From Azolla caroliniana (lineage: Eukaryota; Plantae; Polypodiophyta): a stretch of DNA of 10,537 nt. Below are positions 102 through 10,537 of this stretch, piece by piece; the stretch's first letter is position 1; each line of letters begins with the position of its first letter. The position numbers were made by a program, and so were the translations under genes. The stretch spans positions 1-10,537 of the forward strand of contig JBHGNT010001268.1 in the NCBI GenBank assembly GCA_043228905.1, read 5' to 3'. The notes below the pieces were generated by a model that was given only the letters and a program-made list of their open reading frames with translations, made no database searches and had not been told where the DNA came from.

Positions 102-325
102 TGTCACGGACACACCAAGTGCGGACTAAGACGGAGCACGGATGATGAGGCTACGACGGAGCGATGACATAATGACACAGGAGCATAAAGATAGAGATGA
201 AGATTAAGGAGAGAAGATGGGCGAAACGAGAATACTAGATTGATATGTCCATGATTGGCGTTGAATCCCCTGAAAGGGACCAAGGATGTTACAAGTATTT
301 TATACATGTTCCAAGATTGAATATC

Positions 326-414
326 TCTACAATATACTCGAGAAATATCTCTAGAATATAGTCGTCTAGAATATGCCATACAATATTTCTAGAATATACT
401 AACGACTAGAGTAT
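326..414. repeat. Clustered TCTAGAATAT motifs in the LTR-A U3
   Basis: Exact copies at 350-359, 365-374 and 388-397. Variants TCTACAATAT at 326-335 and ACTAGAGTAT at 405-414. Confidence 0.8.
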
Positions 415-480
415 TATCAATCAATTCTGAAATGTATTATATGCTAGACTATAGAATACTAAACCATTATATACAAATGC

Positions 481-550
481 ATGCTCATATCAAAATGGTT
501 GAGCATGACATCTTCTTGATGTGAGGTTGTAGGTTCAATACTCACCAACT
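481..550 (+). promoter_or_regulatory. Degenerate tRNA-derived segment / Pol III type-2 promoter inside LTR-A
   Basis: A-box-like TATCAAAATGG (488-498, 1 mismatch to TRGYNNARNNG), stem ACATC-ttctt-GATGT (508-522), a GAGGTTGTA variable-loop/T-arm-like stretch, and B-box-like GGTTCAATAC (532-541). A-to-B start spacing is 44 nt, as in tRNAs. Confidence 0.55.
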
Positions 551-558
551 ATGTATTT

Positions 559-663
559 CATGTCACTGTGTCATGACATTATCCTCCCCTTTACGGTTGC
601 TTTTCCGAAATCGTGGTGTAGGGGTGAGCAGGAAGTGGAGCATGTCATTGTGTCATGACATTA
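559..663. repeat. 23-bp direct repeat (559-581 and 641-663): duplicated LTR-A terminus
   Basis: CATGTCACTGTGTCATGACATTA versus CATGTCATTGTGTCATGACATTA, 22/23 identical. Both contain the palindrome TGTCATGACA. Confidence 0.9.
579..592 (-). promoter_or_regulatory. Polypurine tract (PPT) of the LTR-A element
   Basis: Minus-strand AAAGGGGAGGATAA directly abuts the TG that starts the LTR at 578. Confidence 0.75.
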
Positions 664-1620
664 ATGTTTGTGCTAGATGTGGATATGCCTAAAAAGATTA
701 CAACCATGTTTGCAGAAGGAATGAGTGTAATCTCAGATGTGGAAATGTGGCGTAAAAGAATCGGTCACATAAGTATGCAAACCTTGAAAAATATGTTGAG
801 GAAAAATGCAGTGGTTGGATTGCCTAAGTTGAAAGATTGTGAGATGAGCAAAATATGTGAAGCATGCCAATATGGAAAGCAAAACAGGTTGCCTTTCCTT
901 GATAAAAGACATGCAACCAAAAATTTGTTGGATTTGGTATATACAAATGTATGGGGACCAACAAAAAATGCATCAATTAGTGGTTGCAGGTTCCATGTAA
1001 CTTTTATTGATGATTGCTCAAGGAAAACATGGGTTTACTTCATGAAAGAGAAAAGTGAAGTATTTGATTGCTTTCGTAAGTTCAAATGCATGGTAGAAAA
1101 GCAAGTTGGAACTAGAATAAAATGTTTAAGATTTGATGGAGGAGGAAAATACTTCTCAAATGAGTTTTCTGATTTTCTATGCAATCAAGGAATAAGGAGA
1201 CAATTTACATGTAGATATACCCCACAACAAAATGGAGTTGCTGAGAGAAAAAACAGAACTCTGGTGAACATAGCAAGAGCCATGATGATTGAAAAAAATA
1301 TGCCATTGTATTACTGGGTAGAAGTTGTAAACACAACAAACTTTATTCTAAATAGATGTATAACATCTGGAGTACATGAAGTAACTCCTGAAGAATGTTT
1401 ATATGGAAGGAAACCTAGTTTAGGACACTTACAAGTGTTTGGATGCAAGGCAGGTACCTACTTAAGTGAGAAGTAAGCTTGATCCAAAAGCTGAAAAATG
1501 TATTTTTGTTGGATATTTAGAGGAACAAAAAGGGTATAGATGCTATAACCCTTTGACAGAGAAGATTGTGGTAAGTCGGGATGTAATATTTGATGAGTTG
1601 GGCAGCTGGTACAACCCAAA
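664..1620 (+). pseudogene. Copia GAG-pre-integrase + integrase (rve) + GKGY/SH3 region, inactivated
   Basis: ORF 655-1476 then 1466 onward. The first His of HHCC is R (WRKRIGH). The first catalytic Asp is N (YTNVWG, AAT 946-948). A small deletion/frameshift and a TAA lie at about 1453-1465. The right boundary is approximate. Confidence 0.9.
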
Positions 1621-2071
1621 ACAAAATGTAGAAACTGATGAAGACAAGGATAAATCTGAAAATGTAAGAGATAACCACAGAGATGGAAACAATGTTGGAC
1701 AACAAAGTTCAACATCAATAGAATGTACAGGACCATTAAAAAACTTTGGTAGTAAATTTGATTCAAATGCATGGAGTAGAAAACATTCAGGACATAAAAA
1801 ATATGATGATAAAAAGGGAAAACAGAAAATGCCAGAATATGAAATGCTTGATGATGGGTCTAGAAACATGGAAGATGTAGATTCAGATACATCATTGGAT
1901 AATGAGCTTGGTATAGGAGCCTTGAAAATCCTTGGTATGGAAAAGGCAATGAAAGATGCAAGTCAAAAATTGAGAAGATCATATAGAGAGAAAAAAACAG
2001 TTGAAAGATTTGGTTATGATACATACATGGCTATGCATTATGCATATATGTCTAAAGTGGTACAAATCCTT

Positions 2072-2536
2072 GATCCAAATAATTTTGATGAAGCAAAATC
2101 TGATAAGAAATGGGTGAATGCAATGCAAGAAGAAATAGATGCATTGGCTGAAAACAAAACATGGGATTTAGTGAAGTTACAAAAAGGAAAAAATTGTTGT
2201 AGGTTGCAAATGGGTCTACAAAACAAAGCATGATTCAAATGGGAATGTAAGTAGACATAAAGAAAGACTTGTGGCAAAGGGATATGCTTGAATTGATTAT
2301 GATGAAACTTTTGCACCGGTTGCAAAGATGGCAACATTGAGGACACTACTTGTTGTGAGTGCAGCCAAAAGATGATTTCTGCACCATATAGATGTAAAAA
2401 ATGCTTTTTTACATGGAAACTTGGAAGAAGAAGTGTATATGTGTCAACCACTAGGTTTTGAAGATAAGAAGCATCCAGAATATGTTTGTAAGCTGAAAAA
2501 GGCCCTCAATGGACTGAAACAAGCACCGAGAGCATG
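2072..2536 (+). pseudogene. Copia reverse transcriptase (RVT_2 type), N-terminal half, frameshifted and truncated
   Basis: DPNNFDEA..WVNAMQEEIDAL..NKTWDLV, then a frameshift near the A-run at about 2188-2193. It continues [62 protein letters not shown] and is cut within the following Trp codon. Confidence 0.92.
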
Positions 2537-2969
2537 TGTTACCGGCCGGCAAAGGAGTCCAGAGTGTGAAACGGGGAGTTATTTAATTATTAGGAATGGT
2601 TGTAAGTAAGCTATGAGTGTGGACGGACGGACCGGAATCGGTATGCCGTTCTGGATCCGGACCGATCCCGAACAGGTGCGGATGGCACCGTTTTGTACTA
2701 CATACCGGAAACCTATTTAAAGGCCCGGATACAATGTAATGAGCATCGGTTAATTAATAAAGCTTAGTGTTTTTATCTCTCTGTGTTAATTGCCGTTCTG
2801 CATTCATTGTTATATCTTACGTGTGTGATTATTAAGGACGATCTTACTAAGTAGCCTAATTAAGTCAGATTAATCGTTGATTTTAATCCTCTTGCCGTAA
2901 CACCCCTTTGGTGAAGTATCTTCCGTAGACACCCTGTGTTAGGCCATTGTCCGGCCCTAAGAATTAACA
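2537..2969 (+). repeat. 5' LTR of the gypsy element (~433 bp)
   Basis: Starts TGTTA exactly where copia homology stops and ends TAACA (2965-2969; CA at 2970-2971 is an alternative end) just before the PBS. TATTTAAA at 2714-2721 and AATAAA at 2756-2761. The partner LTR is not in the window. Confidence 0.8.
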
Positions 2970-2976
2970 CAGTTTT

Positions 2977-5855: not shown

Positions 5856-5981
5856 TGTCGTGCCTTTCGGCTCCGGATCGTTGCGTGAGTCGGGTGGGAA
5901 CCGCCGAGGTTTTGGACTAGGAGAAAGAAGAATATGAGATGAGGCTAGTAATGAATAGATTATTAGAAAGAGAGATAGAAA

Positions 5982-6117
5982 TTTCGTGAATCCCACGAGT
6001 GTATTGTATTCGATTAATCAATATTTAGATAAGAATATGTATTTAGATTGAAAGAAAGATATAAGAAACTTGTGAATCCCACAAGTATAGATTATATTAT
6101 TTTCGTGAATCCCACGA
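5982..6117. repeat. Three copies of the quasi-palindrome TYGTG-AATCC-CACRA in LTR-B
   Basis: TTTCGTGAATCCCACGA at 5982-5998 and 6101-6117; TTGTGAATCCCACAA at 6070-6084. Confidence 0.9.
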
Positions 6118-6256
6118 TTATATTAATCGGTTGGTGTTTTCGGAAATATATCCAATTTCCAAATATTTCACACACCTATTACATTGTGCTCCCCATCCTT
6201 ATGTAGTGATGGGAGAGACTAAGCATAGCTACATGCTTTTTTTTTTCTAATATGTT

Positions 6257-6402
6257 CATGCACACTAAATGTGCATGTGATGCTTTCTTAATCCTTGCTT
6301 TTATTTGCTAAATATAGTGCTCATGCACGCTAGATGTGCATGAGTCACTTTTTAGTTGCTTGCGTTTTTCTATAAAATATTCACGCACTCTAAAAATGCA
6401 TG
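6257..6402. repeat. Three copies of a 21-bp CATGCA..TGCATG inverted-repeat motif in LTR-B
   Basis: CATGCACACTAAATGTGCATG at 6257-6277, CATGCACGCTAGATGTGCATG at 6322-6342 and CACGCACTCTAAAAATGCATG at 6382-6402. Confidence 0.85.
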
Positions 6403-6473
6403 ATTTACCTTTTAATAAAGGTAGGCGCAAATAAAGAACTTATAGTTATTAAATCTATTTGTAGAACACTAAA

Positions 6474-6546
6474 GATAAGGTAGCATAATGGTAAAATTGA
6501 GGTTTGGCTATGTGGAGGTATAGGGTTCGAATCTTGCCCTATGCAC
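6474..6546 (+). promoter_or_regulatory. tRNA-derived segment / Pol III type-2 promoter inside LTR-B
   Basis: A box TAGCATAATGG (6481-6491) fits TRGYNNARNNG. A GGAGGT variable-loop-like stretch precedes B box GGTTCGAATC (6524-6533). Spacing is 43 nt. A T5 run lies at 6556-6560. The cloverleaf is degenerate, so this is not a functional tRNA. Confidence 0.7.
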
Positions 6547-6651
6547 GTGATAAATATTTTGATATTCTTATTTTATTTATTTATATGTAATTAAATCGTT
6601 TATATTATTTTTACTTTTTCACGTAGTGTACGAAATACACTACGACAGCGC

Positions 6652-9690: not shown

Positions 9691-10019
9691 CGAGGTAATC
9701 ATGCAAAAGCGAGGTATGAGAGAGAGCGAGGAGCGAAAAGGTATGTAGTGGGCATTTAAGCGCCACCACAGGACATAATGCTATTTTAGTACACGACGTG
9801 CACACACTTGAAAAAGGCGCCAGAATGCACAGAGAAAAACCACTACACGTGGAGACCCTCTACTTTCGCGAACCCAGGAGCACAGAAGCACCAAGGCGCT
9901 GGAAGATCATCAGACGAGAACCTATGCACAGAGAACCCCCGCTTTTTGAACTCTCTCTCTCTCAATCTCACTCTCATCACCATCCAACCTCGCCACCACA
10001 ATCCGACCTCGACACATAC

Positions 10020-10537
10020 ATGGACCCGCAAACGCTGTCGAAAGCCGCCAAGAAATGGCTAAAGCAACACGGGCTCGAGGGCTTCTTGACGATTATGGAG
10101 GTACCGCCACACAAAGAAGTCGACAAGGTTATCAAAGAAATCGACACAAAGGTCATAACGGGGGAGGCGATCCGTGCGTTAACAGGCCTTCCGGAGGGAG
10201 GCATACTCACGATTGACAATCCGACCTCGGAGCAACTCATCAAGTATTTTGGTGAGTACTCCCTAGCCAGCAAGGGCTACCGGACACAGGGCGGCGGAGA
10301 TATGCTGTTCCGCAAGATTGCTCGTGTGCTCCACGAATACGGCCATGTGTACCCTAGACCCCCTGTCATGCCGCAGAACCGGGCAGGGATGATCATCGCC
10401 ACCTATGAAGGGATCAATGTGGATTGGCCGGTATTGATCGCAGACGGTTTGTGTGCGGCGATTGAGATCGTCAGAGGCAAAGACGACAAAGAAGGCCGAG
10501 ACGGACGAAGGATATGGCACGCAGTAACGCTGTCGTG
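10020..10537 (+). CDS. Additional 3' ORF of the gypsy element, unknown function (open at the window end; possibly interrupted at 10531)
   Basis: About 172 stop-free codons from ATG 10020: MDPQTLSKAAKKWLKQHGLEGFL...VITGEAIRALTGLPEGG...YEGINVDWPVLIADGL...RRIWHAVT. A CT-rich leader (9951-9978) precedes it. The track probably omits it because it has no stop in the window. Confidence 0.75.
   Translation, partial: MDPQTLSKAAKKWLKQHGLEGFLTIMEVPPHKEVDKVIKEIDTKVITGEAIRALTGLPEGGILTIDNPTSEQLIKYFGEYSLASKGYRTQGGGDMLFRKIARVLHEYGHVYPRPPVMPQNRAGMIIATYEGINVDWPVLIADGLCAAIEIVRGKDDKEGRDGRRIWHAVTLS

What the first reader, a model, noticed from the sequence alone, without database searches (positions are those of the whole stretch)
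481..550. Second, apparently independent LTR with a tRNA-like cassette in the same position and orientation
Seen: A-box-like 488-498, a 5-bp anticodon-arm-like stem ACATC/GATGT, then GAGGTTGTAGGTTCAATAC (T arm/B box), at 44-nt spacing. It sits about 37 nt from the U3 terminus and is antisense to the LTR, whose orientation is fixed by the PPT. LTR-A and LTR-B show no other similarity visible by eye. Inference: recurrence in two families suggests a shared design of outward-facing tDNA at the LTR edge rather than chance.
Basis: partly seen in the sequence, partly recalled or inferred. Interest (0 to 1): 0.7.

Follow-up and report, generated by a model that had tools for sequence, protein, structure and literature searches.

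The report
Backwards tRNA promoters inside retrotransposon ends
Many families of jumping genes in this plant genome, likely a moss, keep a back-to-front tRNA-gene promoter about 180 bases ahead of their own promoter, which likely recruits the cell's tRNA-gene factors to hold that promoter open amid silenced DNA, a role so far untested.

Summary
Observation confirmed and much wider than stated. Window 488-541 holds an A box, a tRNA variable-loop AGGT and a B box, antisense in U3 of a self-primed Tcn1-type LTR (102-578). This copy is weak alone (51/1000 whole-LTR shuffles match it). LTR-A is Phygy-type (tRNA-Trp primer, 4-bp NCGN duplications), so the two differ in lineage. The cassette also sits in autonomous elements: 64 of 67 chromodomain-picked LTRs score antisense, 1 of 67 sense. 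A derived pattern hits 9,597 sites, control 0; 26 of the first 30 are antisense in LTRs. Across families only the boxes and AGGT persist; stems, anticodon arm and terminators do not. Exceptions: two families carry it in sense; copia, the window's host gypsy and 25 of 29 Trp-primed loci lack it. Not Helenus (sense, TRIM-only). Best reading: a TFIIIC-bound DNA element aiding the LTR promoter (0.45); binding and function untested. The scan noted tRNA boxes in two other genomes' LTRs before.

The parts
102..578 (-). LTR-B: LTR of a non-coding, self-primed Tcn1-type element (U3 about 578-272, R-U5 about 271-102)
   Evidence: Genome copies align over 99/102-578 and occur as LTR pairs with 5-bp TSDs
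488..498 (+). A box of the cassette, antisense to the LTR
   Evidence: present in 14 of 19 family copies picked through another part of the LTR
524..527 (+). AGGT in the register of tRNA variable-loop positions 44-47
   Evidence: Not part of the scoring matrix, yet AGGT or GGGT in 20 of 22 families; 15 of 19 B copies
532..541 (+). B box, 44 nt after the A box start
   Evidence: GTTCRANNC in 16 of 19 B copies
579..590 (-). Polypurine tract fixing LTR-B orientation
   Evidence: Same PPT-TGTCA junction precedes 3' LTRs of chromodomain elements
641..660 (-). Duplicate of the first 20 nt of the LTR; outer end of the B insertion (102-660)
   Evidence: Repeat D10; same 82-bp duplication in L004; a contig joins 98 to 663
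295..304 (-). Predicted Pol II TATA box, 183 nt from the A box
   Evidence: lies 31-35 nt before the self-primer in B and four autonomous families
261..271 (-). Predicted self-primer (5' end of the element RNA), complementary to the sequence behind the 5' LTR in full copies
   Evidence: 8-11 nt complement in 5 of 6 B copies; family-specific 11-12 nt complements in four autonomous families
5856..6647 (-). LTR-A: solo LTR of a gag-only Phygy-type element, 4-bp GCGC duplication
   Evidence: PBS matches host tRNA-Trp; Phygy features from PMC6317226 supplement
6481..6533 (+). Cassette of LTR-A: A box 6481-6491, AGGT 6516-6519, B box 6524-6533
   Evidence: 28.2 bits, 0 of 1000 shuffles
628..2540 (+). 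Broken copia pol fragment into which B inserted
   Evidence: Pfam gag_pre-integrs, rve, SH3_retrovirus
2537..2972 (+). 5' LTR of the host gypsy element; no cassette (negative control)
   Evidence: Best score 8.4, reached by 33% of shuffles
10531..10537 (+). Start of a third, Trp-primed LTR whose antisense cassette (36.3 bits) lies just beyond the window
   Evidence: L149

Best explanation
The cassette is a tRNA-derived A-box/B-box element that many Tcn1-type and Phygy-type LTR families carry in U3, mostly pointing away from and about 180 nt upstream of their own TATA box, and it likely works as DNA, binding TFIIIC to keep the element's Pol II promoter open against surrounding heterochromatin. 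Shown: presence, strand bias, spacing, retention of the boxes and loss of the stems across families. Inferred: selection on the boxes, origin from a tRNA-headed SINE, Pol II transcription of the element from the TATA, TFIIIC binding. Untested: binding, any Pol III transcript, barrier or activating effect.
For: Among nine families picked by chromodomain alone, mean pairwise identity is 0.96 at B-box invariants and 0.89 at the AGGT (not in the matrix), against 0.27 in the anticodon zone and 0.33 upstream; cassette-bearing families share as little as about 50% integrase identity. T-stem pairing equals shuffled partners (50 vs 49.5), so RNA structure is not what is kept. The most abundant family in the chromodomain sample keeps only the B box, as at ETC and B-box barriers (PMC12409998 and PMC2040200, passages). 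A-box-to-TATA distance varies less (CV 0.26) than distance to the LTR edge (CV 1.28) over 19 families. Sense exceptions fit, because the fission-yeast tDNA barrier is orientation-independent. Chromodomain elements of this kind sit in heterochromatic islands yet are transcribed in P. patens (PMC7466625, passages). A divergent tRNA-like A/B pair drives a neighbouring gene in Leishmania (PMC4950102, passages). A free tRNA-headed SINE with the same head layout exists in this genome.
Against: No binding, chromatin or expression data. Within family B the boxes are not clearly more conserved than neighbours (A 0.89, B 0.93, middle 0.89, inner U3 0.86-0.88). Abundant families do without it: four copia LTR types, the host gypsy, 25 of 29 Trp-PBS loci, 15 of 15 more distant Tcn1-like metagenome LTRs and, by eye, Selaginella SM-Tcn1. 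AGGT conservation is not explained by any promoter element I found described. A pure barrier does not need the strong strand bias. B-box identities are partly circular, since the box was located with the matrix, and the TATA was taken as the first match more than 60 nt downstream. tDNA barriers have not been described in plants (PMC13578239, passage).
Confidence: 0.45

Rival explanations
1. Passenger: SINE heads inserted into ancestral LTRs and spread by descent and U3 swapping between families, without current function.
For: A SINE donor type exists; boxes decay like neighbours within family B; many families lack it; an earlier scan note read a fungal case this way (e1-9852194, not checked here).
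Against: Neutral decay would not leave boxes at 0.89-0.96 identity and the stretch between them at 0.27 across families, nor keep spacing at 43-44 in 15 of 22 families.
Confidence: 0.2
2. The cassette is transcribed by Pol III and the antisense RNA is the functional product, tuning or silencing the element.
For: Intact A and B boxes at tRNA spacing in most families; strong antisense bias; B and A have T-runs 14-23 nt downstream in some copies.
Against: A T4 run was seen in only 7 of 24 cassettes, though for edge-proximal ones only 6-44 nt could be scanned; no shared fold or sequence between the boxes; B-box-only families would transcribe poorly.
Confidence: 0.17
3. In the genomic RNA the antisense cassette pairs with host tRNA loops to help strand transfer or packaging, as proposed for HIV-1 U3-R.
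For: The kept stretches (D loop, variable loop, T loop) are the most constant parts of tRNAs; AGGT is in exact tRNA register; the HIV precedent was seen as a title in a reference list only.
Against: Tcn1-type families are self-primed; family A is no closer to its primer tRNA-Trp than to others and exact matches to the 15 isotypes held are at most 15 nt; sense-oriented families exist.
Confidence: 0.12
4. The cassettes are landing pads for elements that integrate upstream of Pol III genes.
Against: Break points lie 64-196 nt from the A box with no single distance (read); it does not explain benefit to the carrier.
Confidence: 0.05

Closest known systems
Helenus / TRIMp3 (Kojima 2024, PMC10886601; parts 1-4 of 6 of the text and searched supplement passages read)
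   Same: tRNA-like sequence in an LTR with A and B boxes kept and no working tRNA; SINE-head origin proposed; includes one lycophyte family.
   Different: In the Helenus sequences seen the cassette is sense and in the 3' part of the LTR, proposed as the element's promoter, in TRIMs of 311-1263 bp. Here it is mostly antisense in U3, beside a TATA, and present in autonomous gag-pol elements. The paper notes that 'not a few LTRs' in Repbase contain tRNA-like parts but analyses only TRIMs.
Trypanosomatid divergent tRNA-like promoter elements of snRNA genes (PMC4950102, abstract and passages)
   Same: Divergent non-cloverleaf tRNA-like unit whose A and B boxes sit at a conserved distance upstream of another transcription unit; B box better kept than A box.
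   Different: There the neighbour is a Pol III snRNA gene at about 105 bp and the effect is shown by mutation; here the neighbour is a predicted Pol II LTR promoter at a looser distance and nothing is tested.
tDNA, ETC and B-box heterochromatin barriers of yeasts (PMC2040200, PMC12409998, passages)
   Same: TFIIIC-type sites, with or without an A box, acting as DNA elements.
   Different: [quoted passage not shown]
Tcn1 chromoviruses and Phygy elements (PMC6317226 passages and supplement rows, PMC2864245 passages and supplement 3)
   Same: Carriers: self-priming chromodomain elements, and tRNA-Trp-primed elements with NCGN duplications.
   Different: No tRNA-like U3 cassette is mentioned in the passages read; SM-Tcn1 lacks one by eye.
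tRNA-Lys3-like sequence in HIV-1 U3-R (Piekna-Przybylska 2010; title seen in a reference list only)
   Same: tRNA-related sequence in U3.
   Different: There it relates to the primer tRNA; here most carriers use no tRNA primer.

Membership tests
Helenus (TRIMp3) | tRNA-like sequence with A and B boxes inside the LTR | tested here: met
Helenus (TRIMp3) | Cassette on the element's sense strand, able to start the element's RNA | tested here: not met
   Helenus entries seen are sense; B is antisense by PPT, TATA and self-primer
Helenus (TRIMp3) | Non-coding TRIM of at most about 1.3 kb | tested here: not met
   Full B copies are about 1.7-2 kb; autonomous carriers exist
Helenus (TRIMp3) | tRNA-type PBS | tested here: not met
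   B is predicted self-primed; family A does have a tRNA-Trp PBS
Tcn1 chromovirus lineage (family B as non-autonomous member) | Self-priming: sequence behind the 5' LTR complementary to the RNA 5' end | tested here: met
   8-11 nt complement 31-33 nt after the TATA in 5 of 6 copies
Tcn1 chromovirus lineage (family B as non-autonomous member) | PPT-LTR junction and LTR similarity shared with chromodomain elements; 5-bp TSD | tested here: met
   Same junction; LTR-B matches L239 U3 at E 3e-20
Tcn1 chromovirus lineage (family B as non-autonomous member) | pol with chromodomain integrase | tested here: not met
   B internal region is repeats without gag-pol in the copies read; placement rests on cis features
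Phygy (family A) | 4-bp NCGN TSD and tRNA-Trp PBS | tested here: met
Phygy (family A) | Phylogenetic placement of RT/RH/INT with reference Phygy | not tested
   Family A is gag-only; no reference Phygy proteins were held
Functional tRNA gene | Cloverleaf with acceptor stem and valid anticodon loop | tested here: not met
   No ARAGORN or Rfam call; best relative 25.4 bits, below cut-off 29
TFIIIC-dependent barrier / Pol III type 2 promoter | A and B boxes at tRNA spacing | tested here: met
TFIIIC-dependent barrier / Pol III type 2 promoter | TFIIIC occupancy and blocking of silencing | not testable with these tools
   Needs ChIP and reporter assays

The most novel reading that the evidence does not exclude
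Two unrelated gypsy lineages of a moss carry their own mobile tDNA insulators: TFIIIC sites placed upstream of, and in some families on both sides of, the Pol II promoter let heterochromatin-dwelling retrotransposons stay expressed, scattering on the order of ten thousand TFIIIC sites through the genome and giving the first plant tDNA barrier.
Probability: 0.3. Interest if true: 0.85.

Novelty: new variant of a known kind. Interest (0 to 1): 0.62.

Why it matters
How retrotransposons that live in heterochromatin keep being transcribed is an open question, and tDNA barriers are undescribed in plants. A box-for-box conserved Pol III-type element upstream of LTR promoters, with natural full, B-box-only, sense and absent variants, makes both directly testable in a moss with reporter assays. 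If bound, these sites (9,597 exact pattern hits, of which 2 of the first 30 are tRNA genes) would far outnumber tRNA genes and could shape TFIIIC distribution. They are also a likely source of false tRNA or SINE annotations.

Tried and rejected
ARAGORN and Rfam on the window: no tRNA. Expression: no RNA holder listed; three contig sets laid cannot show strand or ends, so no evidence either way. CpG protection at the B box in 38 copies of the most abundant family: too few changes, inconclusive. Within-family conservation in B: no clear excess. Nearest host tRNA: no isotype stands out among the 15 held, an incomplete set. Rejected: Helenus membership; a functional tRNA; conserved stems or terminator; 'always at the edge' and 'always outward'. 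The first tree attempt failed at display and was redone. Rows dropped: 3 of 70 own-genome and 9 of 46 metagenome loci without a readable LTR edge; 34 of the 80 metagenome loci were not given to (short, or no edge); the window B copy and the unresolved family C4 were left out of the 22-family counts, which use one chosen copy per family, usually a high-scoring one. Literature: ten searches listed no paper describing antisense A/B boxes in U3 of moss LTRs; most subscription papers and Repbase entries were not searchable, and five .doc supplements of PMC2864245 could not be read and may describe moss Tcn1 LTRs.

Full report
Setting. The window is a nest of plant retrotransposons: a copia pol fragment (628-2540), a gypsy element from 2537 onward, and inserted LTRs. 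The host is likely a moss; this is inferred from the lineages present, since Tcn1 is reported only from mosses and club-mosses and Phygy from Physcomitrella (PMC6317226, passages).

Observation. ARAGORN and Rfam do not call a tRNA. I built a weight matrix from 35 of 39 distinct host tRNA sequences. The window copy scores 11.6 bits, which is unremarkable for a whole window, marginal for a whole LTR (51 of 1000 shuffles) and significant for the outer 150 nt on the stated strand (1 of 1000); LTR-A scores 28.2 (0 of 1000). The single copy is weak; the case rests on families.

What LTR-B and LTR-A are. B is a non-coding element with LTRs of about 480 bp, a repeat-rich interior and 5-bp duplications. 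Its orientation is fixed three ways on the minus strand: PPT, TATA, and a sequence 31-33 nt after the TATA that is complementary to the bases behind the 5' LTR in 5 of 6 copies. Four autonomous chromodomain families show the same arrangement with their own, different 11-12 nt complements, while two tRNA-primed controls do not. This is Tf1/Tcn1-type self-priming (bioRxiv 2022.12.06.519325 and PMC6317226, passages). A is a gag-only element with 4-bp NCGN duplications and a PBS matching host tRNA-Trp, the Phygy signature. A and B share no BLAST similarity beyond what other families share in the boxes. So the carriers belong to different lineages.

How widespread. I collected LTRs through the chromodomain, independently of the motif. 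Of 70 loci, 67 had a readable LTR edge; 57 of 67 have an antisense B box in the first 150 nt; 64 of 67 beat shuffles at p <= 0.05 antisense and 1 of 67 sense. These are not independent: 38 belong to one family. At family level the cassette ranges from near-perfect (C1, C2, C6, C7) to B-box-only at the very edge (C3) to barely visible (C4). Among Trp-primed loci, 4 of 29 distinct ones carry it, including autonomous elements (L350, L362). A pattern derived from these cassettes hits 9,597 places against 0 for the reversed control. Of the first 30 hits, 26 are antisense in known LTR families, 1 sense in an LTR, 2 are tRNA genes and 1 is a SINE. Four copia LTR types and the window's host gypsy lack it. 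In metagenome relatives, the 22 loci at 65-97% integrase identity with a readable edge all show at least a B-box-like match, and the 15 at 50-60% show none significant. In the integrase tree that cassette-less group falls between two cassette-bearing clades (support 99 and 93), so either it was lost there or gained or swapped more than once. SM-Tcn1 of Selaginella lacks it by eye.

What is conserved. Across 22 families T8, A14, the GG, the B-box invariants and an AGGT at tRNA positions 44-47 persist; the AGGT was not in the matrix. Spacing is 43-44 in 15 of 22. T-stem pairing does not exceed shuffled partners (50 vs 49.5; Watson-Crick only 33 vs 27.6, reached by 10% of shuffles), there is no common fold, and T4 runs follow in 7 of 24. 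Among nine chromodomain-picked families identity is 0.96 (B box), 0.89 (AGGT) and 0.27 (anticodon zone). Against this, boxes within family B decay about like their neighbours, as expected if most differences arose after insertion, but it gives no support.

Position and strand. Over 19 antisense families the distance to the LTR edge is 6-558 nt (CV 1.28) and the distance from A box to first TATA-like match is 114-275 nt in 18 (CV 0.26 with the outlier). Two families break the strand rule: an autonomous Trp-primed family (L345) and, by TATA and termini only, L356/L131 carry a sense cassette about 85-100 nt before the TATA. Three others (L362/L353, L228, L358) add a sense cassette downstream of the TATA, so that both point away from the promoter.

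Mechanism. Conservation of promoter letters without RNA structure, B-box-only variants, and anchoring to the TATA point to a DNA element read by TFIIIC (inferred). Known TFIIIC sites block heterochromatin in yeasts, and divergent tRNA-like boxes drive neighbouring snRNA genes in trypanosomatids. Chromodomain elements of P. patens lie in heterochromatic islands and are still transcribed. I therefore favour a barrier or chromatin-opening role for the LTR's own promoter (0.45). Rivals are a passenger relic (0.2), a functional antisense Pol III RNA (0.17), pairing of U3 RNA with host tRNAs (0.12) and a landing pad (0.05). A SINE family with a like head (at least 40 copies, A-rich tail, one 15-bp duplication) shows a plausible donor type but is not B's direct source. 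No usable RNA data were found.

Comparison and novelty. Helenus shares the tRNA-like LTR segment but is sense, TRIM-only and tRNA-primed, so membership fails. Ten literature searches listed no description of this arrangement. Earlier scan notes report tRNA boxes in LTRs of two other, likely fungal genomes, read once as a landing pad and once as a relic; I did not check those loci. Verdict: a real, selected-looking and apparently undescribed LTR module; a new variant of a known kind, with function untested.

Noticed in passing
window 102-660; L004: The B insertion is an LTR plus PPT plus a 20-nt duplicate of the LTR start; flanks read AGAAT/TTAAT, an imperfect duplication. Possibly plus-strand priming at a duplicated PPT lengthened U3.
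   Followed up: partly
L147 (3' LTR junction); window host gypsy 2537 onward: The host gypsy family has no purine tract before its 3' LTR; earlier scan notes describe a tRNA-Arg end there.
   Followed up: no
window 310-420; L116, L347, L359: Arrays of TTCTAGAA (heat-shock-element-like, recalled motif) fill U3 between cassette and TATA in B and some Tcn1 families; other families have CATGCA arrays (RY-like, recalled).
   Followed up: no
L328 1215-1570: A tRNA-headed SINE family of about 350 nt with A-rich tail, at least 40 copies.
   Followed up: partly
L349 745-1463: Two inverted 290-bp arms, each with an outward-facing cassette, around a self-primer-like centre: a fold-back of a Tcn1-type LTR.
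   Followed up: no
PMC2864245 supplement 3: SM-Tcn1, reported without evidence of self-priming, shows by eye a complement between its LTR and the bases behind the 5' LTR.
   Followed up: no
L005, L014/L015, L017, L030: Several B copies are interrupted near the TATA (window-equivalent 292-308), hinting at an accessible spot.
   Followed up: no
L008 internal region: One B copy carries about 300 bp resembling ribosomal protein rps19/rpl22 coding sequence (recognised by eye, recalled).
   Followed up: no
G000 C814 and C1268: The window is present twice at 100% identity on two small contigs, probably an assembly duplicate.
   Followed up: no
window 9720-10535: An extra open frame of at least 272 aa after the host gypsy integrase, without Pfam match.
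   Followed up: no
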